Source: a virus
Strand: one strand, 5' to 3'
Virus record (IMG/VR): IMGVR_UViG_3300025598_000021
Length of the DNA: 64,000 bases
Shown here: positions 8,395 to 33,448 of the stretch, one piece after another
Layout of the letters: every line of letters starts with the position of its first letter
Numbering within the stretch: position 1 is the stretch's first letter
Program-made: the position numbers and the translations under genes
The notes under the pieces: model-generated
Told to the model about the DNA's origin: nothing
Database searches by the model: none
The model's input: only the letters and a program-made list of their open reading frames with translations

Positions 8395-8595
8395 ATGGAT
8401 GATAAGTTAGATGAAATTGCAAGACTGATGGCTCCAATCGATGAGCAGATTACTCTGTGTGAGAGCGGCAGTGAACAGATCATGCTTGCGTGTGGAATGA
8501 TGCAGAGAGTAAAAGAGATATTGAACCACCACCTTGGAGTAGAAGGCGCGGCTAATATCTTAAAGGAATATGTTAACACTACAACTCTACAGTGA
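8395..8595 (+). CDS. Hypothetical protein
   Basis: Compact ORF in a co-oriented operon. Confidence 0.55.
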   Translation: MDDKLDEIARLMAPIDEQITLCESGSEQIMLACGMMQRVKEILNHHLGVEGAANILKEYVNTTTLQ

Positions 8596-8602
8596 GGTTA
8601 TA

Positions 8603-9007: not shown

Positions 9008-9008
9008 G

Positions 9009-9452
9009 ATGACCGATATTCGTTATGAAATGGGTAATATAGGTGAGCTTGCAGTAGAAGAACACTTTGATTCACAGAGAACAGACGATTGGTATGACTC
9101 TCGTAAGGATGGAATGATCAACAATATGTCCTACGAGGTCAAGACCTTTCGTCTAAATGGAAAGACTAAAGGATTTTGGATTGATAAGTCTCAATGGAAG
9201 AAAGTAGATGGAGTAGACATTCTTATCTTTGTGAGAGTACCTGAGACTACCGATGAAAGAGCTAGAATATACGTATGTATAAATCATAAAAACTGTTGGC
9301 AAAAAGCTTATAGAAACGATGGAACCGGAGTAAGATCTTATCCATTGACAAATTGCATATATATTGGTACAATAGGTGAAGAAAGATCATTACAACTATA
9401 TGAGCATTCTGTAAAGATCTCTAAACATAAGAGGTTAATCAATGCCGCATGA
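9009..9452 (+). CDS. PD-(D/E)xK nuclease-like protein
   Basis: GNIGELAV..KDG..YEVKT motif. Confidence 0.5.
   Translation: MTDIRYEMGNIGELAVEEHFDSQRTDDWYDSRKDGMINNMSYEVKTFRLNGKTKGFWIDKSQWKKVDGVDILIFVRVPETTDERARIYVCINHKNCWQKAYRNDGTGVRSYPLTNCIYIGTIGEERSLQLYEHSVKISKHKRLINAA
9345..9373 (+). promoter_or_regulatory. Sigma70-type early promoter upstream of the base-modification genes
   Basis: TTGACA-17 nt-TACAAT. Confidence 0.6.
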
Positions 9453-9849
9453 ACGTTACTCAGTCCAAGTTCTACAAGAGTGCATAGACCTCCAGAACAA
9501 GAAGTCTAACGACTATCAGAACCCAAACTCTACTATTAAGCAGGCTGACTATTATCCAAATGGTTGTCAGACTATCTTGGATACTATCCAAGCTAAAGTT
9601 CTTCGCATGCGTTCTGTTATGGAAGCTATGCAGTATGATAAGAACTATAAACCAAACTTCGAATCACTTGAAGATTCAGCTAAAGATCTTATCAACTACG
9701 CTTCTTTCTTTGTGACGTTCTCGCGTGGTAAGATGGAAGGTCAAGATCCTAATCGCGACTTTCTTAATAAACAAAAACAAGTAGTGTCATACACCAGCCA
9801 TACTATCACGGTAACAGCTAGTAATGAGGTAGAAGATGCAGGTTGCTAG
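9442..9849 (+). CDS. Nucleotide-modification-associated helical protein (Nmad1/DUF1599-like)
   Basis: KKSNDY..K..R..ESLEDSAKDLINYA pattern; adjacent to gp42-like gene. Confidence 0.55.
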   Translation: MPHERYSVQVLQECIDLQNKKSNDYQNPNSTIKQADYYPNGCQTILDTIQAKVLRMRSVMEAMQYDKNYKPNFESLEDSAKDLINYASFFVTFSRGKMEGQDPNRDFLNKQKQVVSYTSHTITVTASNEVEDAGC

Positions 9850-10486
9850 AGTCCAAGACATCAGAGAGTACTTCTACGATCAGTTAAAGAAACAAAACTT
9901 TGTAACTGATAAGACTGGTGTTAAGACTATCGAACTCATTGGCGCTAACTTCATTGCCAATGAGCCTACTATCTTTGGAGAAGTAAACGAAGATTATATC
10001 CGTAAAGAATTGGCTTGGTATAAGTCGATGTCTCTAAACGTTAATGATCTAGAAGACACGCCTGCTATATGGAAGAAAGTAGCAGACGAAGATGGTTATA
10101 TCAACTCAAACTACGGCTGGTGTATCTGGTCGCACGATAATCACTATCAATATCATAACGCGTTGAATGAGCTTAATAAGAATCCAGACTCACGCCGCGC
10201 TATCATGATCTATACAAGACCATCGATGTGGCACGACTATGACTATCACGGCATGTCAGATTTTATGTGTACTAACACCGTGCAGTATTTGATCCGTGAT
10301 AATAGACTTAACGCTGTAGTTCAGATGAGATCTAACGACGTAGTCTATGGCTATCGCAATGACTACGCTTGGCAGGACTACGTATTAGACAAGATGGCAA
10401 ATGAGTTAAAAGTTGCTCGCGGCGATATTTATTGGAATGTAGGATCTCTTCATGTCTATGAAAGACACTTCGACTTGGTCATCTAA
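9836..10486 (+). CDS. gp42: dCMP hydroxymethylase (T4 gp42-type)
   Basis: DKTGVKTIELIGA, INSNYGW, NPDSRRAIMIYTRPSM, GMSDFMCTNTVQYLIRD, MRSNDVVYGYRNDYAWQ closely match T4 gp42 as recalled, with Asp (dCMP specificity) where ThyA has Asn. Confidence 0.9.
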   Translation: MQVARVQDIREYFYDQLKKQNFVTDKTGVKTIELIGANFIANEPTIFGEVNEDYIRKELAWYKSMSLNVNDLEDTPAIWKKVADEDGYINSNYGWCIWSHDNHYQYHNALNELNKNPDSRRAIMIYTRPSMWHDYDYHGMSDFMCTNTVQYLIRDNRLNAVVQMRSNDVVYGYRNDYAWQDYVLDKMANELKVARGDIYWNVGSLHVYERHFDLVI

Positions 10487-10928
10487 GTATTTAAATCTAG
10501 CAAAACACGTAGCGACTTGGTCTAAAGATCCATCCACTAAAATCGGCGCTGTAGCTGTAGGAGAACGCGGCCAGATACTAAGTACTGGCTATAATGGTTT
10601 TCCTAGAAATATTGAAGACAGACCGGACAGGCTAAACGATAGAGAGTCAAAGTATAAGTACGTAGTTCACGGTGAGATGAACTGCATATATAATGCGACA
10701 CTCAATGGTGTGAGTTTAAATGAAGCAGACTTATACGTGTATGGATTGCCTATATGCTCTGAGTGCGCTAAGGGTGTAATACAGGTCGGCATCAAGCGCG
10801 CTTTCATGTGCTATCCTGAGAATACAAGAGACAAGTGGAAAGACTCTTATAAGATTACTTCTGAGATGTTTAATGAAGTCGGAATATATCATGAGGTCGT
10901 GTATGAGAGCGATAGTGGTAGGAATTAA
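10458..10928 (+). CDS. cd: dCMP deaminase
   Basis: WSKDPSTKIGA, GYNGFPR, HGEMN, PICSEC. Confidence 0.9.
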   Translation: MKDTSTWSSKYLNLAKHVATWSKDPSTKIGAVAVGERGQILSTGYNGFPRNIEDRPDRLNDRESKYKYVVHGEMNCIYNATLNGVSLNEADLYVYGLPICSECAKGVIQVGIKRAFMCYPENTRDKWKDSYKITSEMFNEVGIYHEVVYESDSGRN

Positions 10929-11265
10929 TCCTTCTAATCATAAGACTGTCGATAAGCACTGTATTACCATAAAGCGTCTATTCAAATGGATGGACGACTT
11001 GAATATCAAGTATTTCTCGTTCGTAAACTGTATACCAAGTCCAGGAAGATATAATAAATCTGACATCGACTACGATATGATAGACGTCTGCACGAGAGAC
11101 TATAAAGTAGTACTGGCGCTTGGTAACTTTCCATCTGAAGCTTTAAACAAAATTAACGTAAAGCACTTTAAATTGCCACATCCTTCTGGGCTAAATAGAC
11201 AATTAAATGACGTCAAATATGAATTAGACATGTTGAGACAGTGCAGGAACTATATCTATGGCTAA
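10903..11265 (+). CDS. Uracil-DNA glycosylase superfamily protein
   Basis: VVGINPS, LALG, LPHPSGLN motifs. Confidence 0.7.
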   Translation: MRAIVVGINPSNHKTVDKHCITIKRLFKWMDDLNIKYFSFVNCIPSPGRYNKSDIDYDMIDVCTRDYKVVLALGNFPSEALNKINVKHFKLPHPSGLNRQLNDVKYELDMLRQCRNYIYG

Positions 11266-12352
11266 AAAGATTTTAATAACTGGTTTTAATAAAGAGCAGT
11301 GCACACGCGACTACTTTCTTACCAAAGAACTTAGAATTTTAAACTCACACTACTCTCTAATTCGATGTCTAGAAGACATGGGATTCGAGGTAGAGCAGCG
11401 ACCTGTAGACATCGGCGAAGACCTATCCGGATACGATCGCGTAATCATATATCTACATTCTATACAGTCGTTCTGCCAATTCTTGTATGACGGTCTATAC
11501 GCTATTAAGGCTCGTCCGGACGCGATTCTAGCGTTTGATGACTGGCAGGTAGATCAGGTCATGGCGTGTTTTCCACAGTTTAAGCGTAACTTACTCGACG
11601 AAGAGAAGTATAATCCATTTAGACAATATCTACTAGATCTCTATTATGGATCTTCAGACGAAGCCACTATTCGCGCTCACAAGCAAGACTATCTAGAAAG
11701 TATAGAGCAGGTACTATCTTATCAAAACAAGTTGATGATCTGTGCCTACTCAGGCGGTGACCTAAGCAAGTTTAAACTCGGATGGTCAAGCGACAAGTTG
11801 TTCAGCTTTAATCCTAACCCCTACAATCTTAATCGTGGACCGCATAACAACTTTGGCGAAGAATCTACAGGTCTAAACGCTTTCTTTGAGGAGGACACTC
11901 CTAAAGAGAAGATCAGGGCTTGGGTGTTCTCATCGCTGAATCACAAGAAAAACGATGCAGTTGTTAAGAAGAATAATTTTACGTGGGACGTCGCCATGTA
12001 TGGTCCACGACGTGGTGAATATAAAGCGCAGCGTCTAAAAGAACCTGATATGTGCAGAGAGTATGTAAAGCACTGGGGTTGTCTATTACCAAAATACTAT
12101 CACGCCGGCTCAGGATGGTGGCGATCTAGAGTACAGCAGGTGGCAGACGCCGGCTCTATTCTACTATGTGACGACGTTGAAGGCGTAATCTATGGCGACG
12201 CGTATGTCGGTCTAAACATTGCAGATATAGAAAGCATGGACAACACGCAGCTAGAAAAGCTGGCTAAATATCAGCACGACTGTTTGTATGATAATCATCC
12301 GCTAGACAAGAAAGTGCAGCGCGATGAATTGACTAAGATCTTGGAGATTTAA
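11258..12352 (+). CDS. Putative GT-B glycosyltransferase (DNA-modifying candidate)
   Basis: Rossmann-like KILITG start; C-terminal GWWRSRVQQVADAGSILL resembles the GT-B donor-binding segment; context next to gp42. Confidence 0.5.
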   Translation: MAKKILITGFNKEQCTRDYFLTKELRILNSHYSLIRCLEDMGFEVEQRPVDIGEDLSGYDRVIIYLHSIQSFCQFLYDGLYAIKARPDAILAFDDWQVDQVMACFPQFKRNLLDEEKYNPFRQYLLDLYYGSSDEATIRAHKQDYLESIEQVLSYQNKLMICAYSGGDLSKFKLGWSSDKLFSFNPNPYNLNRGPHNNFGEESTGLNAFFEEDTPKEKIRAWVFSSLNHKKNDAVVKKNNFTWDVAMYGPRRGEYKAQRLKEPDMCREYVKHWGCLLPKYYHAGSGWWRSRVQQVADAGSILLCDDVEGVIYGDAYVGLNIADIESMDNTQLEKLAKYQHDCLYDNHPLDKKVQRDELTKILEI

Positions 12353-13552
12353 ATGAAGCACGCCGCAATCATTCCACTCATCGGTGGAGAAGCGCTAGCA
12401 TCAGCGGCCGTATTTGGTAGTAGACCAGACTATATTTTAAGTTATACGCCATTTAAAAATCACGATGCGCACCTGCTTAATTATTGGGACCACGAAGTTC
12501 CATACTATCTACTAGACGAAGGTGGAAGGCATCCTCATAAAGTAGACGTCGTGTCTAGCGTGTGTCCGTGCGCCGGCCTGTCAATGTTGTCTACCGGCTA
12601 TGGCGAACACAATCCAAATAATAAATGGATGTTAGAATCTGCAGAATACGTATTAGGTGAGATGCAGCCTAAAGTATTCTGGGGTGAGAACGCTCCTGCG
12701 CTCGCTGGAAAGATCGGAGAACCTATTAGAAACCAACTAATTGATATTGGTAATAAACACGGTTATACGATGACTCTCTATCGCACTAAGAGTCTTCTAC
12801 ACGGCGTGCCACAAGTTAGAGAGCGAACGTTCTACTTCTTCTGGAAAGGTGATAAGACACCAATTCTTAACTACTACAACGTTCCATACGATAAGATCGA
12901 AGACGTAATATTGAGAATCAAAGCTAATTCTCAGATGGAACCTATCAATAAGAATAAGCCGAGCGAAGACCCGTATTATAAGTATCTCCTAGAAGTAGTC
13001 TATGGTGGTATCACTCATCGCGAACATTTTGATAAAATCGATCCTAATAACATATCCGTGAGAAGCTATGATTCGAAAAGTCTTATCGAAACTTTTGGCC
13101 ATGATTATAGGCAAGTCGGCGCGTGGATGGAAGCAAATGGATATGAAAGAGAAGTCAGTAAGTGTGATCGTATGTTTAACAAGCTCGCATCGGGTAAAAA
13201 CATCATGCGTCGCGGTACTATCGTACCGAAAGAATACATCGGTGCTTTTGTCGGTCACTACCCTACCATGCTTACGCACCCGCACGAAGACAGATACATA
13301 ACATACAGAGAGGCGATGTCTATCATGGGTCTGCCTGAAGACTTTGAACTTCTAGACCCAAAGAAAAACTACAACCATATCTGTCAAAACGTTCCATTTC
13401 GCACTGCAGTAGACATGGCTAAAGAAGTCAAGGCAGTACTAGAAGGTGAGAGAGAATTTGTTGACAATCGCTTAGTTTATCAGTATAATAGTAATAGGAA
13501 ACACGTGTTAGCTGATAAAAGACAGAACAGTCTAGCTGAATTTTTTAATTGA
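12353..13552 (+). CDS. C5-cytosine methyltransferase homolog with atypical motif I
   Basis: Motif IV VCPCAGLS, VI GENAP, VIII GVPQVRER, IX/X REAMSIMGLPEDF..QNV; motif I reads IIPLIGG instead of FxGxGG. Confidence 0.75.
   Translation: MKHAAIIPLIGGEALASAAVFGSRPDYILSYTPFKNHDAHLLNYWDHEVPYYLLDEGGRHPHKVDVVSSVCPCAGLSMLSTGYGEHNPNNKWMLESAEYVLGEMQPKVFWGENAPALAGKIGEPIRNQLIDIGNKHGYTMTLYRTKSLLHGVPQVRERTFYFFWKGDKTPILNYYNVPYDKIEDVILRIKANSQMEPINKNKPSEDPYYKYLLEVVYGGITHREHFDKIDPNNISVRSYDSKSLIETFGHDYRQVGAWMEANGYEREVSKCDRMFNKLASGKNIMRRGTIVPKEYIGAFVGHYPTMLTHPHEDRYITYREAMSIMGLPEDFELLDPKKNYNHICQNVPFRTAVDMAKEVKAVLEGEREFVDNRLVYQYNSNRKHVLADKRQNSLAEFFN
13461..13489 (+). promoter_or_regulatory. Sigma70-type early promoter
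   Basis: TTGACA-17 nt-TATAAT. Confidence 0.7.
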
Positions 13553-13559
13553 TGGAGGA

Positions 13560-13979
13560 GTGATGAGCGTCTTTAAGAATAACCCTACTATGGTAAACGG
13601 CGGAGGAACCATGATTGGATCTATAACCGCCGATGATTTATACAAGTTCGAGAACGGCAAGACATATCATGCTAGCGTTAGTTCTTCGGCTTCAGTACCA
13701 AATATCCAGTATAAATACAACGAAGGTCGTATCATTGACGACTTTCGCGCCTATATCGATAAGACATATGGGCAGCACTATATGACCGAAGACCAAAATA
13801 TAGAATGTTTTGACGTGTGGCTAGCTCTCGGCGATTCAATGCCTACCTTCAGAAACACAGCTATTAAGTATCTCTGGCGCTATGGAAAGAAAAATGGCAC
13901 CAATAGAGACGACTTGATGAAAGTATTGCATTATACTCTAATGATGTTGTATGTAGACCATTACAAGAAAGGTGAATAA
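13560..13979 (+). CDS. DUF3310/SaV-like protein
   Basis: TYGQHY..IECFD..AIKYLWRYGKKNG..DLMKVLHY. Confidence 0.65.
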   Translation: MMSVFKNNPTMVNGGGTMIGSITADDLYKFENGKTYHASVSSSASVPNIQYKYNEGRIIDDFRAYIDKTYGQHYMTEDQNIECFDVWLALGDSMPTFRNTAIKYLWRYGKKNGTNRDDLMKVLHYTLMMLYVDHYKKGE

Positions 13980-13982
13980 AAT

Positions 13983-14840
13983 ATGGAAATTCAGATCCCA
14001 GTTGAAAAGTTGCGCGAACGAGGTCTCTTTGTAGCAACTCCAATGTATGGCGGACAGTGCGCCGGTATGTTTGCACGATCCGTTGCAGATCTATCTGCTC
14101 TATGTACAAAGTATGGTATTCCTCTACAGTTCTACTTCCTGTTTAATGAGTCATTGATCACGCGCGCTAGAAACTATTGCTGCGATGAATTCATGCGCTC
14201 ACAGACGCAGCACATGATGTTTATTGACTCCGACATCGGCTTTAATCCACAAGACGTTATCGCTCTTATGGCGCTGCAGGCCAATGATGAAGATAAGTAT
14301 GATATCATCGGCGGTCCATATCCTAAGAAGTGTATCTCTTGGGAAAAGATCAAGCACGCTGTCGATAAGGGTGTCGCTGACGAAGATCCTAACGTACTTG
14401 AGAAGTTCGTTGGTGACTACGTCTTTAATCCTAAGGGCGATCAGCAGAGTATCCCACTCAGCGAGCCAGTCGAGGTTCTCGAGATCGGAACGGGCTTCAT
14501 GATGGTCACTAAGAAAGCCATGCAGAAGTTCTACGACAGCTACAAGGACCAGTACTCATACAAGCCAGATCACGTTCGCACAGAGCACTTCGACGGCTCA
14601 CGTGAGATTCTAATGTTCTTCCAGGCTGAAGTAGATCCAGCGTCTAAGCGCTATCTCTCAGAAGACTATTGGTTCTGTCAGAAAGCTCAGCAGATCGGTC
14701 TTAAGACTTGGTTCTGTCCGTGGATGGTTCTACAACACGTTGGTACGTATATCTTCGGCGGTTCACTTGCTGATATTGCTTCTGTCGGTGCAGCTGCAAC
14801 CGCTGATCCATCAAAAATTGGTGGTAAAAAGAAGAAGTAA
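13983..14840 (+). CDS. GT-A (GT2-like) glycosyltransferase
   Basis: ATPMYGG, NESLITRARN, FIDSDIGF (DxD), GTGFMM, LSEDYWFC. Confidence 0.8.
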   Translation: MEIQIPVEKLRERGLFVATPMYGGQCAGMFARSVADLSALCTKYGIPLQFYFLFNESLITRARNYCCDEFMRSQTQHMMFIDSDIGFNPQDVIALMALQANDEDKYDIIGGPYPKKCISWEKIKHAVDKGVADEDPNVLEKFVGDYVFNPKGDQQSIPLSEPVEVLEIGTGFMMVTKKAMQKFYDSYKDQYSYKPDHVRTEHFDGSREILMFFQAEVDPASKRYLSEDYWFCQKAQQIGLKTWFCPWMVLQHVGTYIFGGSLADIASVGAAATADPSKIGGKKKK

Positions 14841-27234: not shown

Positions 27235-27615
27235 TTATTCCTCGCTTTTGTGTTCTTTCAGATCTATAGTTATACTATCTGCTATCTTAAGAGCACCCTC
27301 TTCATCCGCATCGTCTAAGAATATATTTTCAGTTATTTTCTGAAACGGATGATATATATCATAGTGTTTACACAACATCGATCGTAGAGCCTCTACGAAG
27401 AAAGCCCCGTCCTTGATATCTGTCTCTAGATCTTCTTCGTCTGGATAAAACCCAGCGATGTCCAGATGAGTAAAGATAATTGGAATGATGGTGGCGATGG
27501 TCTCTTGAATGTGATAGAGATTCATCTGCTCGACGTTGTGGTCGATCTCATCTATAGAGATCATCCTACTTAGATTCTTATTTTCTTTTGGAAAGAGGAT
27601 TACATTGTTGCTCAT
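27235..27615 (-). CDS. Hypothetical protein
   Basis: MSNNVILFP start; own promoter. Confidence 0.6.
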   Translation of the reverse strand: MSNNVILFPKENKNLSRMISIDEIDHNVEQMNLYHIQETIATIIPIIFTHLDIAGFYPDEEDLETDIKDGAFFVEALRSMLCKHYDIYHPFQKITENIFLDDADEEGALKIADSITIDLKEHKSEE

Positions 27616-27621
27616 GATTAT

Positions 27622-27661
27622 ATTATACCATATTTTCCATTAATTGTAAATTATATTTATA
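27622..27661 (-). promoter_or_regulatory. Tandem late (TATAAATA) and sigma70-type (TTTACA-17-TATAAT) promoters
   Basis: Both consensus elements seen on the minus strand. Confidence 0.6.
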
Positions 27662-28298
27662 GTCTTTCATAGTTTCTTACGTCGTCTACGACTTTGATAT
27701 TAGTTACTAGTGCTAGTAGATCTGTGTGAGAGAAGTTTAACTCTGTAGTGTGAAATACATATGCTGGGTGTATAATAAAAGTACCAGCATATGGTCTTAT
27801 AGCGTGTAACATGTTGTGATTAAGATATCTACTACGCTGTGGTATAGGATCTAAGAGATGGAGACGGTTTCCTGCCATCTTTTGATGTGTTTTTTCACCT
27901 TCTTTAGTAAGGCATTCTCCTACTTGCACGAACAGAACTGCTACGTAGTCCACTGATCTATGTGTATGTGGTTTAGAATACTGTAAATGCTTAAACTTTC
28001 TTAAATTAGTAATTGCTTCAAACACTATTTTTTCTGGATCAAAGAATCCTTCAGATTTAGCCATCTCTAGCATGCGATCTTTTAGCATCTTCTTAAATAG
28101 TTGACAAGAAGGACGAGGATCGGACAATAGATTATAAGAAGTTTCTGGATTTTTACGCATCTCTTTTGGTAGATGCGCCTCAGGGTGAAGAGATTCATAC
28201 TCTTCGCCAATATCTATTATATCCTTTATAAATTCAGGTGTAACTTCTGCAGCGTATTTTTCGTAAAGAAGATTAGTTTCCCATAGATTTCTAATCAT
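27657..28298 (-). CDS. 2OG-Fe(II) oxygenase-like protein
   Basis: PHTH..YVAVLFV..LLDP..IIHPAYVFH pattern. Confidence 0.65.
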   Translation of the reverse strand: MIRNLWETNLLYEKYAAEVTPEFIKDIIDIGEEYESLHPEAHLPKEMRKNPETSYNLLSDPRPSCQLFKKMLKDRMLEMAKSEGFFDPEKIVFEAITNLRKFKHLQYSKPHTHRSVDYVAVLFVQVGECLTKEGEKTHQKMAGNRLHLLDPIPQRSRYLNHNMLHAIRPYAGTFIIHPAYVFHTTELNFSHTDLLALVTNIKVVDDVRNYERL

Positions 28299-28882
28299 AG
28301 TTTTAAGCTCTTTAAATCCTTTACTGTAAACTGCTTTCTCATATACTGAGCCATGGCATGCATTAGGATCTGATGACAGTCTTCAACGACGCCATAGTTA
28401 TTAGACTTAACATGAACTATATGATCTGCAAGATTTCTTCTTAGAATCTGACCGCCATCAAATCCGACGAACGCGATGGTGGTATACTCTTCATACTTTG
28501 CCTGCTCTAGAGCTTTAATGATGTTCGGAGAGCTACCTGAAGAAGTAATAGCAACTACCGTGGCTAGGTCTGACTGGTGATACTCGATCTGCTTAGAGAA
28601 CACCTGCTCATAACTCATATCGTTAGCGATCGCGGTCATTAGAGCCATGTTGCTTGCTAGATTAGTGACGTTTGGCCAGATGTACGTGTCTTCACCGACG
28701 CCCTTAGTATGGTCGCACGACCAGTGTTCTGCGATAGCCGCTGATCCACCGTTACCGATTGTGAGGATTTGTTTTCTTTGTTTAGCGCATTCTACGATGT
28801 GGTCTGTTACAGTTTTTAATACGACTTCATCGACCGTATCGAGAGCCTCGTCAATCATCTTCTGATATTCTTTAAACATCAA
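28295..28882 (-). CDS. gmhA: Sedoheptulose-7-phosphate isomerase (SIS, GmhA-like)
   Basis: GNGGSAA, TAIAND, SSGSSPNII, GFDGG, EDCH. Confidence 0.85.
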   Translation of the reverse strand: MMFKEYQKMIDEALDTVDEVVLKTVTDHIVECAKQRKQILTIGNGGSAAIAEHWSCDHTKGVGEDTYIWPNVTNLASNMALMTAIANDMSYEQVFSKQIEYHQSDLATVVAITSSGSSPNIIKALEQAKYEEYTTIAFVGFDGGQILRRNLADHIVHVKSNNYGVVEDCHQILMHAMAQYMRKQFTVKDLKSLKL

Positions 28883-29853
28883 ATAGTCTCCAGAGTAGAT
28901 CCATGTTTGGCAAACCTGAACTTAAATCTCTCGTGCTGCTTCATAGCTTCATTCACTCTATTCTTGTATTTATCAGGAACATAGACTAGCAAGTATCCAC
29001 CTCCACCTGCGCCTAGAATCTTTCCACCAAGCGCGCCGTTACGCATGGCTTTGTCATACATCTCATCGATATGCGGATTACTTACGTTATCTGACAACTT
29101 CTTCTTTATCTGCCAGCCCTGATCAAGTAGACTTCCAAAGTCATCTATCTTCTTCTTTTGCAGCAGTTTAACAGACGTCTTAGCTAGTTCTACCATAGAC
29201 TTCGTCTGCTCTATATTGACGTTGTTCTTTAAGTTTTCAACCTGTTTTGTTAAAACAGAAGAAGCTTGTCTGTTTATGCCGGTGTTAAAAGCTAGTAGAT
29301 TACTATCGAGCTCATACATGGCGCTTGGATCGATATCTACAGGCTTAATTCTAGTCTCATTGCCGTGGAAGTATATCGTATTAAACCCGCCATAAGCAGC
29401 CGCATACTGATCCTGCTTGCCGATTGGTTCATTGCATCTTACTATCTCGATGTACGAAGCAAGTTCAGCGAGCTCTTTGTGATCTATGTTCTTGTTGTGT
29501 ATGATTCTATAGACAGCGTTTATTAGTCCTACAGTAAATGTGGACGAAGACCCTAGTCCCGTTCCTTTGGTGGGAACGTCTGAGAACGACGCTATCTCAA
29601 TGTTTGATGGGAATTCAAAATGTTTAAGAGTCTCTCTGACCCTGTCGTGTTTAACGTCTTCTAATTTATCGGTCTGCTCTAGTACCGAATAGATGACCCT
29701 GATATGATTTGCGACACAGCGATTAACAGCCAGATATATGTAGCTATTAATCGCTGTAGATACGACCATTCCCTCGTTGTTCTCATAGAACTGTGGAATG
29801 TCAGAACCTCCTCCAAAGAAGGAGATTCTGAGTGGTGTTTTTGTTACGATCAT
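28879..29853 (-). CDS. hddA: GHMP sugar kinase (heptose-7-phosphate kinase HddA-like)
   Basis: PLRISFFGGGSD, GTGLGSSS, IGKQDQYAAAYGG, GGKILGAGGGG. Confidence 0.9.
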   Translation of the reverse strand: MIVTKTPLRISFFGGGSDIPQFYENNEGMVVSTAINSYIYLAVNRCVANHIRVIYSVLEQTDKLEDVKHDRVRETLKHFEFPSNIEIASFSDVPTKGTGLGSSSTFTVGLINAVYRIIHNKNIDHKELAELASYIEIVRCNEPIGKQDQYAAAYGGFNTIYFHGNETRIKPVDIDPSAMYELDSNLLAFNTGINRQASSVLTKQVENLKNNVNIEQTKSMVELAKTSVKLLQKKKIDDFGSLLDQGWQIKKKLSDNVSNPHIDEMYDKAMRNGALGGKILGAGGGGYLLVYVPDKYKNRVNEAMKQHERFKFRFAKHGSTLETI

Positions 29854-30842
29854 GTTCTATACGTAAACATCTCTGATGGGGTCTTTCTAGACTCTGCGGT
29901 AGGATACTGTTCTCTCAGCTCAAGCATGAGTGACTCCCACTGCGCGCTTATCTTCTTTAGATTGAATCGCGTATCAGCATATGCCTTAACAAACTTCATA
30001 TAGTTCTGAAGATCAGGGTTATTCACCTCCTGAATAGCCTTGTCAAGGTACTTATAAAACGTCTGTGCGTGCTCTTCTGGCTTCTGACTAAACTGATACA
30101 TGAACGTCGTACCACCAGAAGTATCAGGAAGCGCGGCTAGGTTTGGATGAACTGCAAGTAGTCCAGCAGACATCGATTCAATTAGTACCCTACAAGACGT
30201 CTCAGGCCATACGCACGGGTAGGCAAGAATATGCGCTTTCTGAATATGCTCTTTAAGCTTCTCCTGCGGGGCAAAGCCGTGGTATGTCATATTTGGATGG
30301 TTGCGAATTTTGTCGTACAGGGGTTCAAAGTGCTGATCTGCCTCGTCCCAGCCGTAGATCTTAAAACTAGAGAACACGTCAAGATGAACGTTCTTGTGCT
30401 TCTGCGCTAGCGCGTCTACTACAGGAATCAACAGTTCTAGACCGCGTTGTGGGGTAGAGAAATAGATCAAATTTACTTTATCTGGATCTTTTGCTACGAG
30501 CTCAATAGGTTCGACCGGGGTCTCAATGACCTGAACCTTTGAGTCTAGCGGGATACCGAGTCTATTATTAAACTCCTGAAGCTGCCAGTTAGAGCTGAAC
30601 ACCATCTTATGAAAACGATTTCTGCTGTTTTCTTCTTTAAAGTGCGCGCACTCAGGATCGTGAGCGAGGTCGTGAGCCCAATAGATTCTAATCTTATCTT
30701 CTTCTAGATCTCTAATACGAGAAGGCACGATCTGAAATTCTTTTCCTAGCTCTTCAGGAATATACTTACCGATGCTTCTCTTTGTAATCTCAGTGCCGCC
30801 GTGAGACTTAGCAGAGATTTCATTTTCTTCAACGAACGCCAT
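29850..30842 (-). CDS. GT-B (GT4-like) glycosyltransferase
   Basis: GGTE, STPQRGL, AYPCVWPETSC..ESMSAG. Confidence 0.85.
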   Translation of the reverse strand: MAFVEENEISAKSHGGTEITKRSIGKYIPEELGKEFQIVPSRIRDLEEDKIRIYWAHDLAHDPECAHFKEENSRNRFHKMVFSSNWQLQEFNNRLGIPLDSKVQVIETPVEPIELVAKDPDKVNLIYFSTPQRGLELLIPVVDALAQKHKNVHLDVFSSFKIYGWDEADQHFEPLYDKIRNHPNMTYHGFAPQEKLKEHIQKAHILAYPCVWPETSCRVLIESMSAGLLAVHPNLAALPDTSGGTTFMYQFSQKPEEHAQTFYKYLDKAIQEVNNPDLQNYMKFVKAYADTRFNLKKISAQWESLMLELREQYPTAESRKTPSEMFTYRT

Positions 30843-31389
30843 TCTTAAACTCCATTTCAATTATAGCAACTGCGGCGGCTAAATCCGACGCGACATGATA
30901 AGGTTCACTCATATCTATATATTCTTCTGGTGGATCATACGCGTGTTCGTTACCGACTAGTATTGTCGTCAGCATACACTTGTTTCCTGGAACGATGTCT
31001 TTCCATCTATCACCGATCATATAACTACCCTGAGAATTGATCTCATAGATGCGCATGAGTGAGTCGATCATACCCGTGTTTGGCTTATAAAGATTAGTAT
31101 CTTTCTTAAGCGCGTATAACACGTGATTCACACCTAGTTCTTCTTCAAGATATTCGCAGATAGAGTCAAGCTCTACTATAAACATCTCACCGTCTAATAC
31201 GCCAGGCTGATTTGTCACTACGAACACAGAAAAGCCCATGTCTTTTAATCGTGTAATCGATTCTTTGACATGTGGATATAGTCTATCTTTAAATTCAGCG
31301 AGCGTCCATGGTGAAGTCATTCTGCCGTCTGATCTTAGCACTAGACTATTGATTACACCATCTTTATCTAAAAATACGGCTTTGCACAT
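30829..31389 (-). CDS. gmhB: Heptose-1,7-bisphosphate phosphatase (GmhB-like HAD IIIA)
   Basis: AVFLDKDGVIN, VTNQPG, KPNTGM, MIGDRWKDI. Confidence 0.85.
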   Translation of the reverse strand: MCKAVFLDKDGVINSLVLRSDGRMTSPWTLAEFKDRLYPHVKESITRLKDMGFSVFVVTNQPGVLDGEMFIVELDSICEYLEEELGVNHVLYALKKDTNLYKPNTGMIDSLMRIYEINSQGSYMIGDRWKDIVPGNKCMLTTILVGNEHAYDPPEEYIDMSEPYHVASDLAAAVAIIEMEFKNGVR

Positions 31390-31790
31390 CTGTTTCTCAG
31401 TTCTGTAGTTGAATAGCTGTGGTATCTGTCTAAGAATACTATATCGATATTTCTAATTTTACAGATATCTATGCCAGTTATTGGTTTATTCCTATCAGAA
31501 TAGTCAGCGCCAATAAACCTCTTTTGAAGATCTAGCAAAGATAATATATTGACTAGATCTTTTTCTGTGTCATATGGGATAATATTATCCACACACTTGA
31601 GTGCGCTAAGCTGAACATATCTCTCAAATACAGTCTGAGAGGGCTTGTTCTTTGAGTAGGGTCTATCTACAGTCGGATCAGTATGTAGACCAACATTAAG
31701 CCAGTCACAATTATCTCTTGCTTCTGTAAGCATGGCGATGTGACCTACGTGTAGAAGATCAAACGCCCCAAAAGTTATACCTACTATCAT
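31368..31790 (-). CDS. HIGH-family nucleotidyltransferase (TagD/HldC-like)
   Basis: TFGAFDLLHVGH, ER, GADY, YSTTELR. Confidence 0.85.
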   Translation of the reverse strand: MIVGITFGAFDLLHVGHIAMLTEARDNCDWLNVGLHTDPTVDRPYSKNKPSQTVFERYVQLSALKCVDNIIPYDTEKDLVNILSLLDLQKRFIGADYSDRNKPITGIDICKIRNIDIVFLDRYHSYSTTELRNRCAKPYF

Positions 31791-31800
31791 GTTTATCTTT

Positions 31801-32079
31801 CTAGTAGTTATCTATCACCTGTACGTATTCTACAGAATCGACGCGAAACGATCTCCAACCTGCGTTCTGCAGATCCCATACCGCAAGTACGTCTTTATTC
31901 TGCGTATGAAAATCTTTCACCTTTGGCGCTTCTGAGTTCGTATAAGACTCAGGAAGCACGTCCGGACGAAGCGAGCATCTCATAGCTCTCTTCTCACCAT
32001 TCACTTTAGTAAAATAGACCTCACACACGTTTTCAGTGAGATCGTTTAAGAGTACGTCGCGATCATATTTAACAGTCAT
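31801..32079 (-). CDS. Conserved phage SH3/WYL-like protein
   Basis: VYFTKVNGEKRAMRCSL..VWDL..GWRSFRVD. Confidence 0.7.
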   Translation of the reverse strand: MTVKYDRDVLLNDLTENVCEVYFTKVNGEKRAMRCSLRPDVLPESYTNSEAPKVKDFHTQNKDVLAVWDLQNAGWRSFRVDSVEYVQVIDNY

Positions 32080-32080
32080 T

Positions 32081-32353
32081 TTAAGCTCCAAAATAGTCTT
32101 CAACTAGAAGCTTGCGATTGTCTAGTCTCTCTTCGGTGATGCACTTGAACAGCTGCTCATAGCCACCGATATTCATACCATCGATGACGATCACCGGGAA
32201 AGTCTTAGCTTCTGGAAACTTTGATAGAAGAATCTCTCGAGTAAAGTCTTCATTAAGCTTGTACTCAAAGAAATCTTTACCGTGTGTGTTTAACAGCTGC
32301 TTAGCCTTCACACAGTTAGGACAACCGTCTTTTGAATAGATCTCAATAGCCAT
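32081..32353 (-). CDS. Glutaredoxin
   Basis: CPNC, TFPVI, IGGY. Confidence 0.9.
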   Translation of the reverse strand: MAIEIYSKDGCPNCVKAKQLLNTHGKDFFEYKLNEDFTREILLSKFPEAKTFPVIVIDGMNIGGYEQLFKCITEERLDNRKLLVEDYFGA

Positions 32354-32482
32354 TGAAATACGCCTCCCAATACTCTCTAATGGACGTGATCAACTTAGGA
32401 TCATATCCCTTCGAAGCCATATCATTCTCTACTAAAATTTCTAGATCACTCTTCCACATATATTTCTCCATATTTAGACCTG

Positions 32483-32490
32483 TATTTATA
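32483..32490 (-). promoter_or_regulatory. T4-type late promoter TATAAATA (TTGACA-type element just upstream)
   Basis: Consensus on the minus strand upstream of the grx-heptose genes. Confidence 0.5.
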
Positions 32491-32505
32491 TTATCACACT
32501 CGATA

Positions 32506-32751
32506 TCAGATGTCAACAAAAAAATACTTGATTATTCCGATCCCATATATTATAGTTATGAATATCTGAATTACTATAAGAGACCACTTTTTCCAGTGCA
32601 CGCCCATGATAAACCACAGTAGGTTTCCAACCAGGCTGATATAGATGTTGAGCGGAAAGATATTAAAAGACGTAAGAGCTACGCCGGCGACTAGTGTTAC
32701 AGTCGCCAGCCATTCTATAACGACAAATATCTTACTTGATCTTTCTGACAT
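32506..32751 (-). CDS. Small three-TM membrane protein
   Basis: Hydrophobic; WLAT..PLNIY..GNLLW. Confidence 0.6.
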   Translation of the reverse strand: MSERSSKIFVVIEWLATVTLVAGVALTSFNIFPLNIYISLVGNLLWFIMGVHWKKWSLIVIQIFITIIYGIGIIKYFFVDI

Positions 32752-33448
32752 AAGATGCCTTCACATTTCCTTTTCGAAGGGTCTCAAATCCATTAATGAA
32801 GAGATAGTCTCTCTCAATCATATCGTGGTCGTACATCCAGATATCGTCAAACACATAGACTGACCCTACCGGTGACTTTGGCAAGAAATAATTTAGCTCA
32901 TCGATCACAGCCTGATTGGTGTGGGGACCGTCATAGAAGACGAACGCGAACTTATCTTCTAACTTCTTTTCTTCGTCATACACTGGAACACCGTCCGGAT
33001 AGCGAGCAAAAAACTCAGTATCTTCAAGACAGAAGAAAGTAAAGTTAAGTCCTTTAGAGAAACCATAGTAGTATAGAGATGGAATTACTCTATTTCGCAT
33101 CGTGTTTGTGTAATCAAACTTCGTTGAAAATGAAACATCTTTAGACATCGGATCACCTTCTACCTGATGTTTACCAGGATAGTGAATAGATGCATTGATG
33201 TTTGTGATCTCGAGATCGATGTTTCCATATGGATCGATACAGAACATCGATCGGTTAGTATCACCGCTGTGCTCTAAACAGTCCATGACCATTCTGGCCG
33301 ATCCGCCGCGGCGAGTACCGATCTCAACTACAGCGCCCTCAACACCTTTGATAACAGGAACTGCGTCTACTAGAATCTCATACTCGGTACTGTCAGTATT
33401 AAAAACTTCATCAGGATTAAATCTAATCACGGTCATTTTGTTCTCCAC
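32732..33448 (-). CDS. Class I SAM methyltransferase (TylF/Methyltransf_24-like; often sugar O-methylation)
   Basis: VEIGTRRGGS, CIDPY, FYDGPH, FDD. Confidence 0.75.
   Translation of the reverse strand: MENKMTVIRFNPDEVFNTDSTEYEILVDAVPVIKGVEGAVVEIGTRRGGSARMVMDCLEHSGDTNRSMFCIDPYGNIDLEITNINASIHYPGKHQVEGDPMSKDVSFSTKFDYTNTMRNRVIPSLYYYGFSKGLNFTFFCLEDTEFFARYPDGVPVYDEEKKLEDKFAFVFYDGPHTNQAVIDELNYFLPKSPVGSVYVFDDIWMYDHDMIERDYLFINGFETLRKGNVKASYVRKIK

What the first reader, a model, noticed from the sequence alone, without database searches (positions are those of the whole stretch)
27657..33448. Phage-encoded NDP-heptose-type pathway with a non-canonical enzyme pairing, its own GT and a nearby methyltransferase
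Seen: overlapping minus-strand genes for a HIGH-family nucleotidyltransferase, GmhB, GT4-like GT, HddA and GmhA, then a 2OG oxygenase, with a TylF-like methyltransferase about 1 kb upstream. Established: GmhA-HddA-GmhB makes alpha-heptose-1-P, normally activated by HddC (a different fold) to GDP-heptose; HIGH-type HldC normally pairs with the ribokinase-type beta route. Inference: GHMP kinase plus HIGH transferase may make an unusual nucleotide-heptose. The acceptor could be hmC DNA (heptosyl-hmC, linking to the 8.6-14.8 kb cluster), virion proteins, or host LPS. This is the best candidate here for an undescribed system.
Basis: partly seen in the sequence, partly recalled or inferred. Interest (0 to 1): 0.85.

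Follow-up and report, generated by a model that had tools for sequence, protein, structure and literature searches.

The report
Phage heptose-sugar pathway with its own glycosyltransferase
An uncultured T4-like phage carries a complete four-enzyme pathway for an activated seven-carbon sugar. It is wrapped around a virus-specific glycosyltransferase, the cassette is common in related environmental phages, and what the sugar is attached to is still unknown.

Summary
Window 27657-32353 (minus strand) holds overlapping genes: glutaredoxin, WYL_2, a small HIGH-type nucleotidyltransferase, a GmhB-like HAD phosphatase, a retaining GT4-type GT-B, an HddA/WcbL-type GHMP kinase, a GmhA-type isomerase and a 2OG oxygenase. 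A sigma70-like promoter that is conserved in relatives lies upstream.

The GHMP + HIGH pairing is real. Five of five complete or near-complete relatives have it, and none has an HddC-type enzyme.

The operon is not rare. Of 35 related viral loci, 26 keep kinase and isomerase beside the GT-B. Variants add an epimerase/dehydratase, or a transaldolase plus a sugar O-methyltransferase. Caulobacter phage Cr30 has the cassette, already annotated as heptose genes.

The GT-B is the conserved core and the heptose genes are an optional donor-supply cassette. It pairs with a GT-A at 13983-14840: same phyletic pattern, a natural fusion, and a predicted complex.

The hmC link is not supported. Two genomes that are at least 91% complete carry the cassette but have neither gp42 nor TET/JBP.

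The 2OG gene is lineage-specific. The methyltransferase also occurs beside GT-B in loci without heptose genes.

The acceptor is unresolved; I favour a phage protein. First-stage notes of this scan record the same module in at least six other genomes.

The parts
32488..32516 (-). sigma70-type promoter, TTGACA-N17-TAATAT with TG upstream of the -10
   Evidence: Consensus scan. The TTGACA-N17-TATAAT arrangement recurs at the same place in relatives L005, L006, L008 and L012.
32483..32490 (-). T4-type late-promoter motif TATAAATA overlapping the -10 region
   Evidence: Exact match. The motif is enriched in the window: 17 found, 4.7 expected. It is not exactly conserved in relatives, so timing is unresolved.
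32343..32459 (-). conserved 38-aa small ORF, the first gene of the operon; it overlaps the glutaredoxin start
   Evidence: Read from the sequence. The same peptide is encoded upstream of Grx in L005, L006, L008, L011 and L012.
32081..32353 (-). glutaredoxin (NrdC-like)
   Evidence: Pfam Glutaredoxin, 47.7 bits. It is syntenic with GT-B in Cr30, DLP6 and phiM12.
31801..32103 (-). WYL_2 (DUF2693) small protein
   Evidence: Pfam WYL_2, 42 bits. It lies next to GT-B in phiM12 and in most related loci.
31368..31790 (-). HIGH-type (cytidylyltransferase-fold) sugar-1-phosphate nucleotidyltransferase, 140 aa
   Evidence: CTP_transf_like, 46 bits. rfaE_dom_II 70 bits against TagD 44 bits. phrog_7878. 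The family alignment shows invariant HxGH, GLHTDPTIDRPxxKNKP and R-x-H-x-x-S-[ST]-[ST].
30829..31389 (-). HAD-IIIA phosphatase, GmhB-like
   Evidence: TIGR01662 scores 68 bits, above its cut-off; GmhB models are below theirs. The DxDGV, TNQ, K and GDxxxD motifs are present and there is no Zn-loop cysteine.
29850..30842 (-). virus-specific retaining GT4-type GT-B glycosyltransferase, the conserved core of the module
   Evidence: Pfam. AF2 model pLDDT 96.4. Fold hits are ManT, SenB, TarM, SdgB, BshA, MshA and PimA. An E214-x7-E222 motif is nearly invariant. 1533 close homologues were found. The family is 94-99% viral.
28879..29853 (-). GHMP kinase of the HddA/WcbL heptose-7-phosphate kinase type
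   Evidence: GHMP N and C domains. NCBIfam HddA 164 bits against 77 bits for the next family. WcbL E 1.6e-44 against fucokinase 1e-13.
28295..28882 (-). GmhA-type sedoheptulose-7-phosphate isomerase
   Evidence: SIS_2, 53 bits. GmhA models score 88-104 bits. In the alignment to 1tk9 the Ser-rich phosphate loop and the catalytic His are kept, and Asp stands at the Glu position.
27657..28298 (-). 2OG-Fe(II) oxygenase, a lineage-specific addition to the end of the operon
   Evidence: phrog_81 E 1.5e-10; Pfam below cut-off. It is present only in this phage and the identical contig L010, and absent from all other related loci.
32732..33448 (-). TylF/Methyltransf_24-type methyltransferase, upstream of the operon promoter; its link to the pathway is doubtful
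   Evidence: Pfam. It is conserved in close relatives. It also occurs beside GT-B in loci with no heptose genes: L123, L126, L143 and L185.
13983..14840 (+). GT-A-fold glycosyltransferase, the predicted partner of the GT-B; it lies between the DNA-modification slot and gp45
   Evidence: It is fused to a GT-B homologue in P0249, with 32% identity and E 6e-40. It has the same phyletic pattern in cultured phages. It is present in 4 of 4 near-complete genomes. Predicted complex score 0.76 against best control 0.00.

Best explanation
This is a self-contained phage pathway for an activated heptose, built as a donor-supply cassette around a conserved, virus-specific glycosyltransferase.

Steps. Every enzyme assignment is by homology; none was assayed.
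1. The GmhA-type isomerase converts sedoheptulose-7-P to D-glycero-D-manno-heptose-7-P.
2. The HddA/WcbL-type GHMP kinase phosphorylates C1. By analogy with HddA and WcbL this gives the alpha anomer.
3. The HAD-IIIA phosphatase removes the 7-phosphate.
4. The small HIGH-type nucleotidyltransferase makes an NDP-heptose. The nucleotide is unknown. It is not made by an HddC-type enzyme, so it is probably not the classical GDP-heptose route.
5. The embedded retaining GT4-type GT-B transfers the sugar (inferred). It acts in a complex with the GT-A encoded at 13983-14840.

The whole unit is transcribed from a conserved sigma70-type promoter.

The acceptor is not shown. Because the GT pair is conserved and syntenic in phages of very different hosts, with or without hydroxymethyl-pyrimidine DNA, I take it to be a phage-encoded macromolecule, most likely a virion protein.

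My odds:
- an NDP-heptose is made: about 0.75
- the GT-B uses it: about 0.65
- the acceptor is a phage protein: about 0.4
For: Enzyme identities:
- All four enzymes hit heptose-pathway families best: GmhA, HddA, GmhB/HAD-IIIA and rfaE domain II.
- The genes overlap by 4-22 nt.

Conservation of the cassette:
- Of 35 related viral loci with enough flank, 26 have HddA and GmhA next to the GT-B, and 26 have the nucleotidyltransferase.
- One variant operon (L034) embeds a transaldolase, the enzyme that makes sedoheptulose-7-P, plus a TylF-like O-methyltransferase. The majority variant and Cr30 embed an SDR epimerase/dehydratase, which is a nucleotide-sugar enzyme.
- GHMP + HIGH is the rule. G005, G006, G007, G019 and Cr30 all have the HIGH-type enzyme and none has an NTP_transferase. 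The window's own record has neither NTP_transferase nor PfkB.

The GT-B as the core:
- L012 keeps the GT-B at 71% identity with no heptose genes. phiM12 and DLP6 do the same.
- The GT-B has an EX7E motif and GT4 retaining-type fold neighbours. As I recall it, such enzymes use alpha-linked donors, which would fit the alpha route.

The GT-A / GT-B link:
- Identical phyletic pattern in cultured phages.
- A natural fusion protein.
- GT-A is present in 4 of 4 near-complete genomes.
- The predicted complex scores 0.76 with the best of 3 controls at 0.00. That mark was reached by 58 of 80 solved complexes and 2 of 110 mismatched pairs. The runs agree in 100% of contacts and the partner's pLDDT is at least 86.

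Hints of a phage or protein acceptor:
- The GT-B family is 94-99% viral.
- Family members are fused to GT41 domains.
- The nearest solved folds include the protein O-glycosyltransferases SdgB and GtfA.
- The nearest viral folds are giant-virus, archaeal-virus and actinophage GTs, not the T4 alpha- or beta-GT.

Promoter: conserved sigma70-type element.
Against: - Every enzyme scores well below the curated equivalog cut-offs, so substrate identity is inferred.
- The nucleotidyltransferase lacks the HENase consensus (F/L)XXGXSTT; it reads RYHSYSTT. By sequence alone it is about equally distant from ECT, TagD and HldC structures.
- Known HIGH-type heptose enzymes act on the beta anomer (recalled knowledge), so the alpha-anomer step has no precedent.
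- No acceptor candidate was identified.
- The fold neighbours of the GT-B (7qsg, 3mbo, 3c4q, 2gej, 8x3q) are the same entries reported for proven DNA glycosyltransferases, so fold does not exclude DNA.
- GT-A sits next to a slot that repeatedly holds DNA-modification modules.
- An early-type promoter is what one expects for DNA-modification or host-takeover genes rather than virion modification.
- The GT-B at 71% identity works in L012 without phage heptose genes. Its donor may therefore be a common host sugar nucleotide rather than the cassette's product.
Confidence: 0.4

Rival explanations
1. DNA hypermodification. The NDP-heptose is transferred by the GT-B, alone or after another GT, onto 5-hydroxymethylcytosine in this phage's DNA. 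The product would be heptosyl-hmC or a heptose-containing oligosaccharide that protects against host nucleases.
For: - The phage has a genuine gp42 dCMP hydroxymethylase, E 1e-88 to T4 gp42, with the catalytic Cys and the dCMP-specifying Asp kept. It also has dCMP deaminase and MazG-like genes.
- There is a precedent. A phage cluster of HAD/APH kinase + cytidylyltransferase + GT-B makes mono- and di-heptosyl-5hmC in E. coli (bioRxiv 10.1101/2023.12.21.572611).
- The operon has an early-type promoter.
- The GT-B's fold neighbours coincide with those of proven 5hoC-DNA glycosyltransferases.
- GT-A lies in the replication module beside a hot spot for gp42 or TET/JBP+TAGT modules.
- Cr30, DLP6, G002 and G019 carry TET/JBP.
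Against: - G006 (93% complete) and G007 (91% complete) have the cassette and both GTs. Neither has a thymidylate-synthase-family gene or a TET/JBP gene.
- The complete phiM12 genome has both GTs with only a canonical ThyA and no TET/JBP or TAGT.
- G015 has TET/JBP but GT-B without heptose genes.
- The TET modules bring their own TAGT.
- No T4 alpha- or beta-GT appears among the top structural matches.
Confidence: 0.2
2. Host envelope remodelling. The phage makes heptose and uses its GTs to alter host LPS, capsule or S-layer glycan during infection. This would block superinfection or stop progeny adsorbing to infected cells and debris.
For: - Source annotations call homologues LPS glucosyltransferases or 'cell wall biosynthesis'.
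- Published genome papers read such phage genes as LPS or O-chain auxiliary genes (PMC7029224; PMC12801897).
- Heptose is best known from LPS cores and capsules (recalled knowledge).
- Early expression fits host takeover.
- WaaG-like GT4 enzymes act on lipid-linked acceptors from the cytoplasm (recalled knowledge).
Against: - The same syntenic GT pair is kept in phages of Caulobacter, Sinorhizobium, Rhizobium, Ochrobactrum, Stenotrophomonas and Pelagibacter. As far as I recall, the envelope glycans of these hosts differ, and some are reported to lack heptose.
- GT-A is 90-97% identical among phages whose other proteins are 60-90% identical. That is hard to square with a host-variable acceptor.
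- The family is almost wholly viral rather than recently captured from hosts.
- The published readings are untested annotations.
Confidence: 0.25
3. The cassette and the GT are not coupled. The NDP-heptose, or an intermediate, is a soluble product that tops up or diverts host metabolism. The GT pair then uses a common host sugar nucleotide.
For: - GT-B and GT-A persist without any heptose genes in L012, phiM12 and DLP6, and in 6 of 35 loci.
- The cassette's composition varies: with or without the phosphatase, and with an epimerase, methyltransferase or transaldolase.
Against: - The heptose genes flank the GT-B on both sides with overlapping reading frames, and they do so across a wide clade, down to 53% GT-B identity.
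- That order would be an odd coincidence for unrelated functions.
Confidence: 0.1
4. The small transferase is a glycerol-3-phosphate cytidylyltransferase (TagD), as many records annotate it, and no NDP-heptose is formed.
For: - JGI and GenBank annotations of homologues say so.
- By sequence, the solved structures of TagD and ECT are as close as HldC.
- It has a KNK motif like the KxK of TagD and ECT (the TagD motif is from recalled knowledge).
Against: - The TagD model scores 44 bits against a cut-off of 165, while rfaE_dom_II scores 70 bits.
- The RTEGISTT motif is not kept.
- No Pfam match in or near the operon points to a CDP-glycerol-using enzyme.
- The family is embedded with GmhA, HddA, SDR, 4,6-dehydratase and transaldolase genes.
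Confidence: 0.05

Closest known systems
GDP-D-glycero-alpha-D-manno-heptose pathway (GmhA, HddA/WcbL, GmhB, HddC/WcbM) of capsule and S-layer glycan synthesis, e.g. Aneurinibacillus, Campylobacter, Burkholderia
   Same: The first three steps use the same enzyme types: an SIS isomerase, a GHMP 1-kinase (best solved-structure hits are WcbL, 3k85 and 4n3o) and an HAD phosphatase. The expected intermediate is alpha-heptose-1-P. The downstream tailoring enzymes seen in variants (SDR epimerase/dehydratase, O-methyltransferase) match the tailoring known for GDP-heptoses.
   Different: The activating enzyme is a 140-aa HIGH/cytidylyltransferase-fold protein, not the GT-A-fold HddC. No NTP_transferase gene is found in this record or in five relatives. 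All the enzymes fall below the equivalog cut-offs. The GmhB-like protein lacks Zn-loop cysteines.
ADP-heptose pathway (GmhA, HldA/HldE kinase, GmhB, HldC) and the cross-kingdom 'HBE/HENase' enzymes of Tang et al., Science 2024 (read through commentaries PMC11573728 and PMC11461863)
   Same: The fold of the nucleotidyltransferase is the same, and rfaE_dom_II is the best profile. Viral heptose enzymes are already reported there.
   Different: The kinase is GHMP, not PfkB; no PfkB gene is present. The HENase motif (F/L)XXGXSTT and the STTR5 arginine are absent. According to the commentary, a phosphatase was absent from the viral sets, whereas this phage has one.
Phage heptosyl-5hmC DNA hypermodification cluster ('contig 53'; Pyle et al., bioRxiv 10.1101/2023.12.21.572611, cited in PMC13229309 as Cell Rep 2024)
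   Same: A phage-encoded phosphatase, kinase, cytidylyltransferase-fold enzyme and GT-B produce a heptose-containing product. The transferase is not paired with an RfaE-type kinase.
   Different: That cluster uses an APH-like kinase fused to the HAD domain. It relies on the host for heptose-7-P and sits with a C5-methyltransferase and a 5mYOX dioxygenase. The cassette here has its own GmhA and a GHMP kinase. It also occurs in genomes with no hydroxymethyl-pyrimidine route.
Arabinosyl-5-hydroxycytosine pathway of RB69, DLP3 and HY126 (PMC13326640)
   Same: The logic is the same in T4-like phages: a phosphosugar isomerase, a 1-kinase, an HAD phosphatase, a nucleotidyltransferase and GT4-like GT-B enzymes whose fold neighbours are the same PDB entries.
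   Different: The sugar is different (pentose from ribulose-5-P through a KdsD-type isomerase). The kinase and transferase folds are different. That pathway is tightly linked to a 5hodCMP synthase, and the window's TS homologue is a plain gp42 type.
Virus-encoded virion glycosylation (mycobacteriophage capsid and tail glycosylation, Freeman et al. 2023; chlorovirus capsid glycans made by cytosolic viral GTs with a methyltransferase domain). This comparison rests on recalled knowledge.
   Same: Soluble viral GTs, sometimes multi-domain or fused to methyltransferases, would build glycans on viral proteins. GT-B relatives are fused to GT41, GT25, DXD and FkbM-type domains.
   Different: No glycosylated protein has been shown for any T4-like phage of this group. 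No acceptor was identified here.

Membership tests
GmhA (sedoheptulose-7-phosphate isomerase) | SIS_2 fold and a score above the curated equivalog cut-off | tested here: inconclusive
   SIS_2 scores 53 bits against a cut-off of 27. The GmhA equivalogs score 88-104 bits against cut-offs of 209-320. All top solved-structure hits are GmhA, E 1e-21 to 1e-16.
GmhA (sedoheptulose-7-phosphate isomerase) | Catalytic Glu/His pair and Ser-rich phosphate loop (residue roles from recalled knowledge) | tested here: inconclusive
   In the alignment to 1tk9, the TSSGSSPN loop and the His in ...DCHQILMH are kept. Asp replaces the Glu of the AAEL motif.
HddA/WcbL (GHMP D-glycero-D-manno-heptose-7-phosphate 1-kinase) | GHMP N and C domains; closest to characterised heptokinases rather than to other GHMP kinases | tested here: met
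   Both Pfam domains are above their cut-offs. HddA scores 164 bits over the full length against 77 bits for mevalonate kinase. WcbL, 3k85 and 4n3o give E 1e-44 to 1e-35 against 1e-13 for fucokinase.
HddA/WcbL (GHMP D-glycero-D-manno-heptose-7-phosphate 1-kinase) | Curated equivalog score | tested here: not met
   NF049969 scores 164 bits against a cut-off of 600.
GmhB (heptose-1,7-bisphosphate 7-phosphatase) | HAD-IIIA core motifs | tested here: met
   TIGR01662 scores 68 bits against a cut-off of 44.6. DKDGV, TNQ, K and GDRWKD are present.
GmhB (heptose-1,7-bisphosphate 7-phosphatase) | GmhB equivalog score and Zn-binding Cys/His loop (the loop is from recalled knowledge) | tested here: not met
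   NF006506 scores 66 against 178, and TIGR00213 scores 51 against 150. There is no Cys cluster in the cap region.
HldC / RfaE domain II (heptose-1-phosphate adenylyltransferase; HENase) | Cytidylyltransferase fold with HxGH | tested here: met
   PF01467 scores 46 bits. HVGH is at residues 14-17 and is invariant in 38 homologues.
HldC / RfaE domain II (heptose-1-phosphate adenylyltransferase; HENase) | Equivalog score; C-terminal (F/L)XXGXSTT motif with or without the STTR5 arginine | tested here: not met
   TIGR02199 scores 70 bits against a cut-off of 181.5. The motif reads R-Y-H-S-Y-S-T-T and the family consensus is R-x-H-x-x-S-[ST]-[ST].
TagD (glycerol-3-phosphate cytidylyltransferase) | Equivalog score and RTEGISTT motif | tested here: not met
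   TIGR01518 scores 44 bits against a cut-off of 165. The motif is not kept in the alignments to 2b7l and 1coz.
HddC (GDP-heptose pyrophosphorylase, NTP_transferase fold) | Presence of a PF00483 gene to complete the canonical alpha route | tested here: not met
   There is no PF00483 match in the 125.5-kb record. There is also none in G005, G006, G007, G019 or Cr30.
GT4-type retaining GT-B glycosyltransferase | Glycos_transf_1 C-terminal domain, EX7E motif, GT-B fold | tested here: met
   PF13692 and PF00534 are above their cut-offs. E214-x7-E222 is nearly invariant in 78 sequences. The AF2 model has pLDDT 96.4, and Foldseek matches GT4 enzymes at E about 1e-11.
GT9 LPS heptosyltransferases (WaaC/WaaF) | A match to the heptosyltransferase family (Glyco_transf_9) | tested here: not met
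   No such Pfam or NCBIfam hit for any gene of the operon. None appears among the listed fold matches.
Known DNA glycosyltransferases (T4 alpha-GT and beta-GT, TAGT) | Sequence or fold similarity to these families; co-occurrence with a hydroxymethyl-pyrimidine route | tested here: not met
   No Pfam hit. No T4 GT appears in the listed PDB matches or in the top 50 BFVD matches. GT-A shows no BLAST similarity to the TAGT of G002. The cassette occurs without gp42 or TET/JBP. Caveat: proven 5hoC GTs share the same generic GT4 fold neighbours.

The most novel reading that the evidence does not exclude
A two-enzyme glycosyltransferase complex (GT-A plus GT-B, docked through the GT-B's conserved C-terminal tail) is a core, virus-only feature of a very large clade of environmental T4-like phages. 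In most of them it is fed by a phage-made, non-GDP NDP-alpha-heptose. That sugar nucleotide comes from a GHMP kinase plus a new subfamily of HIGH-type nucleotidyltransferase acting on the alpha anomer. The complex glycosylates a phage-encoded protein, which would be the first virion or phage-protein heptosylation system in T4-like phages.
Probability: 0.3. Interest if true: 0.75.

Novelty: new variant of a known kind. Interest (0 to 1): 0.58.

Why it matters
- The enzymology is new if it holds. The cassette would show a third way to activate heptose: a GHMP kinase with a HIGH-type transferase, probably giving an undescribed NDP-alpha-heptose.
- The scale is large. The GT-B has more than 1,500 close homologues and the GT-A search hit its 8,000-protein scoring cap. 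The cassette sits on phage contigs of 100-170 kb. Whatever it glycosylates is therefore a common feature of abundant environmental T4-like phages.
- It bears on interpretation. These genes are routinely filed as 'LPS auxiliary metabolic genes' or guessed to be DNA-modification genes. The comparative data here argue against a simple hmC link and against a host-specific glycan.
- It is testable. Caulobacter phage Cr30, a cultured phage with a genetically tractable host, has the cassette, both GTs and a TET/JBP gene, so one experiment could separate all three acceptor hypotheses.

Tried and rejected
- I first read Cr30 as having no hydroxymethyl-pyrimidine route because its ThyA is canonical. That was wrong: Cr30 and DLP6 carry TET/JBP genes.
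- A small-sample pattern then suggested that the heptose cassette co-occurs with a hydroxymethyl-pyrimidine module. G000, G001 and G002 had both and G003 had neither. A wider search overturned it: G006 and G007 have the cassette without either route, and G015 has TET/JBP without the cassette.
- Whole-protein pI does not discriminate. GT-B, GT-A, the GT in the gp42 cluster and TAGT all have pI 5.5-6.0.
- Fold comparison of the GT-B cannot separate DNA acceptors from others, because proven DNA GTs share the same PDB neighbours.
- The GT-A model is only moderately confident (pLDDT 67.5). Its matches are generic GT-A enzymes with TM 0.3-0.4, which says nothing about the acceptor.
- GT-A against TAGT by BLAST: no similarity.
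- The diverse GT-B alignment A1 had no stretch conserved enough for a locus scan. A closer set, A3, was used instead.
- A megablast of the region against the phage collection found nothing.
- I could not build a phylogeny of the nucleotidyltransferase with reference HldC, TagD and ECT sequences, because no reference sequences could be brought in by reference.

Full report
**What the window is.** The window is the first 64 kb of a 125.5-kb IMG/VR virus record, estimated 74% complete. It has T4-type replication genes. These include a gp46/gp47 pair, gp45, gp44/62, RNase H and a true gp42 dCMP hydroxymethylase. The gp42 match to T4 gp42 is E 1e-88, with the catalytic Cys and the dCMP-specifying Asp kept. 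I did not verify the habitat.

**Observation.**
- In order of transcription: a conserved 38-aa ORF, glutaredoxin, a WYL_2 protein, a 140-aa HIGH-type nucleotidyltransferase, a HAD-IIIA phosphatase, a GT-B glycosyltransferase, a GHMP kinase, an SIS_2 isomerase and a 2OG oxygenase.
- Neighbouring genes overlap by 4-22 nt.
- Upstream of the small ORF lies a sigma70-type promoter with an extended -10. It is conserved in four related contigs.
- An exact T4 late motif, TATAAATA, overlaps that promoter in this phage only. Timing is therefore not settled.
- The TylF/Methyltransf_24 gene lies upstream of that promoter.

**Enzyme identities.**
- The kinase is firmly of the heptose-7-phosphate GHMP type. 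NCBIfam HddA scores 164 bits over the full length, against 77 bits for the next family. The solved structures WcbL, 3k85 and 4n3o match at E 1e-44 to 1e-35, against 1e-13 for fucokinase.
- The isomerase matches only phosphoheptose isomerases among solved structures. It keeps the phosphate loop and the catalytic His, with Asp at the Glu position.
- The phosphatase has all the HAD-IIIA motifs but no Zn-loop cysteines.
- The transferase has HxGH and scores best against rfaE domain II, 70 bits against 44 for TagD. It is far below both curated cut-offs.
- Its C-terminal motif reads RYHSYSTT. The HENase consensus is (F/L)XXGXSTT and TagD has RTEGISTT.
- The transferase belongs to a tight, largely viral family with its own invariant motifs. 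More than 570 viral loci encode a member.
- All four enzymes are therefore 'like' the heptose enzymes without being curated equivalogs. The combination, not any single score, carries the argument.

**The non-canonical pairing is real and conserved.**
- The record has no NTP_transferase (HddC-type) gene and no PfkB (HldA/RfaE-I-type) gene.
- Five complete or at least 91%-complete relatives carry the kinase: G005, G006, G007, G019 and Cr30. All five have the HIGH-type transferase and none has an NTP_transferase.
- In G005 and Cr30 the transferase lies away from the rest of the cassette.

**The cassette is widespread and modular.**
- Close relatives keep the order ClpP, methyltransferase, DUF6552, Grx, WYL_2, transferase, phosphatase, GT-B, kinase, isomerase, a hypothetical gene, RNase H.
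- 35 further viral loci have at least 2.5 kb on both sides of the GT-B, whose identity to the window's protein runs down to 53%. They break down as follows.

| Genes beside GT-B | Loci |
|---|---|
| transferase + kinase + isomerase | 19 |
| all four enzymes | 4 |
| kinase + isomerase | 3 |
| transferase only | 3 |
| GT-B alone | 6 |

- The majority form and Cr30 have an SDR epimerase/dehydratase in place of the phosphatase.
- Another form (L034, from a 98%-complete genome) reads: transferase, TylF-like O-methyltransferase, SIS isomerase, HAD phosphatase, transaldolase, GT-B, kinase.
- A transaldolase, the enzyme that makes sedoheptulose-7-P, inside the operon is strong contextual support for a heptose pathway starting from that sugar.
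- The 2OG oxygenase was found only in this phage and the identical contig L010, so it is not part of the system.
- The window's methyltransferase also accompanies GT-B in four loci without heptose genes. Its link to heptose is therefore weak here, even though heptose O-methylation is plausible in the L034 lineage.

**The GT-B is the core and it has a partner.**
- The GT-B persists without heptose genes in L012 (71% identity), phiM12, DLP6 and others. It stays at the same syntenic place, Grx, WYL_2, GT-B ... RNase H.
- It has more than 1,500 close homologues, many on contigs of 100-170 kb. The family is 94-99% viral, and some members carry inteins.
- Its model (pLDDT 96.4) is a GT4-type retaining GT-B with an EX7E motif.
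- One relative, P0249, is a fusion of this GT-B with a homologue of the window's GT-A at 13983-14840 (32% identity, E 6e-40).
- That GT-A has the same distribution among cultured phages. It is present in 4 of 4 near-complete genomes and is even more conserved than the GT-B. In phiM12, Cr30 and DLP6 it lies between gp46 and gp45.
- A complex prediction supports binding, though it does not show it. The score is 0.76 with the best of three controls at 0.00. That mark was reached by 58 of 80 solved complexes and 2 of 110 mismatched pairs. The runs agree in 100% of contacts and the partner's pLDDT is at least 86.
- The predicted interface is the GT-B's last eight residues laid on the GT-A's N-terminal strand. 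Both segments are conserved among close homologues.

**The acceptor: hydroxymethyl-pyrimidine DNA.**
- Next to the GT-A there is a variable slot. In G000 and G001 it holds the gp42 cluster. In G002 it holds MazG + TET/JBP + TAGT. In G003 it holds only MazG and one unknown gene.
- Cr30, DLP6, G015 and G019 also have TET/JBP.
- This, the early-type promoter and the published heptosyl-5hmC cluster keep the DNA hypothesis alive.
- Against it, G006 (93% complete) and G007 (91%) have the cassette and both GTs but no thymidylate-synthase-family gene and no TET/JBP gene.
- The complete phiM12 genome has both GTs with only a canonical, T4 td-like ThyA.
- G015 has TET/JBP with a GT-B but no cassette.
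- The TET modules carry their own TAGT.
- The cassette therefore does not track hydroxymethyl-pyrimidine DNA.

**The acceptor: host glycan or phage protein.**
- The host-glycan reading found in the literature is untested.
- It fits poorly with a virus-only GT pair kept in phages of Caulobacter, rhizobia, Ochrobactrum, Stenotrophomonas and Pelagibacter.
- A phage-encoded acceptor, most simply a virion protein, explains the conservation best.
- It is hinted at by GT41 fusions, by SdgB and GtfA among the fold neighbours, and by giant-virus, archaeal-virus and actinophage GTs as the nearest viral folds.
- No acceptor was identified, so this step is inference.

**Comparison with what is known.**
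- The first three steps are those of the GDP-alpha-heptose route.
- The fourth enzyme has the fold used in the ADP-beta-heptose route, but its motifs diverge.
- Viral heptose enzymes have been reported (Tang et al., read through commentaries). So has heptose on 5hmC made with a cytidylyltransferase-fold enzyme.
- Cr30's genes have long been annotated as heptose genes.
- I rate this a new variant of a known kind.
- First-stage notes of this scan record the same module in at least six other genomes. That agrees with my own locus survey but is not independent evidence.

**Limits.**
- No activity, anomer, nucleotide or acceptor is shown.
- Most contigs are fragments.
- Absence calls rest on two genomes that are 91-93% complete and one complete genome.

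Noticed in passing
window 8570-13979, compared with L028:8390-10936 (G002) and L029:5300-7000 (G003): A DNA-modification hot spot lies between a conserved gene (7802-8383) and DUF3310/GT-A/gp45. This phage and G001 carry a gp42 cluster there: MazG-like, gp42, dCMP deaminase, UDG-like, an unassigned 364-aa protein and a C5-methyltransferase. G002 carries MazG + TET/JBP (83 bits) + TAGT (58 bits) at the same place. G003 carries only MazG and one unknown gene.
   Followed up: partly
window 13983-14840: The GT-A-fold protein has no Pfam family. It sits in the replication module between gp46 and gp45 in phiM12, Cr30 and DLP6. A very abundant, very conserved phage gene of unknown acceptor.
   Followed up: partly
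window 32343-32459 (minus strand): A conserved 38-aa ORF beginning MWKSDLEILVEND lies between the sigma70-type promoter and glutaredoxin and overlaps the glutaredoxin start. The same peptide is encoded in L005, L006, L008, L011 and L012. Function unknown.
   Followed up: no
proteins P0142, P0144, P0158, P0245 (GT-B relatives of about 690 aa): Some GT-B homologues are about twice the usual length and match the query in two separate stretches. P0142, the one scanned, is interrupted by an intein with a LAGLIDADG endonuclease. This is unusual for a glycosyltransferase and suggests the gene is under strong purifying selection in its phages.
   Followed up: no
L034:12071-12811 (G019, a 162-kb contig): A transaldolase (TAL_FSA, 131 bits) is embedded inside the heptose/GT operon of a related phage, next to a TylF-like O-methyltransferase. 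Phage transaldolases are usually read as pentose-phosphate-pathway boosters. Here one seems dedicated to supplying sedoheptulose-7-P for a glycosylation pathway.
   Followed up: partly
Cr30 NC_025422.1 59584-60027; DLP6 KU682439.2 27179-28525 and 24235-25098: Two cultured T4-like phages carry TET/JBP-family dioxygenase genes. In DLP6 the gene is annotated 'SNF2 DNA repair protein'; I did not read the Cr30 annotation at that place. DLP6 also has a TAGT-family gene annotated 'hypothetical protein'. Their DNA may carry glycosylated hydroxymethyl-pyrimidines.
   Followed up: no
window 31368-31790: The public gene call for the nucleotidyltransferase (P0273, 121 aa) starts at an internal Met and lacks the catalytic HxGH motif. 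The 140-aa reading is supported by all homologues.
   Followed up: yes
window 27622-27661 (minus strand): A second pair of overlapping signals lies directly after the 2OG gene and before the gene at 27235-27615 and RNase H: a sigma70-like promoter (TTTACA-N17-TATAAT with TG) and TATAAATA. The two overlapping promoter types appear here as they do upstream of the heptose operon.
   Followed up: no
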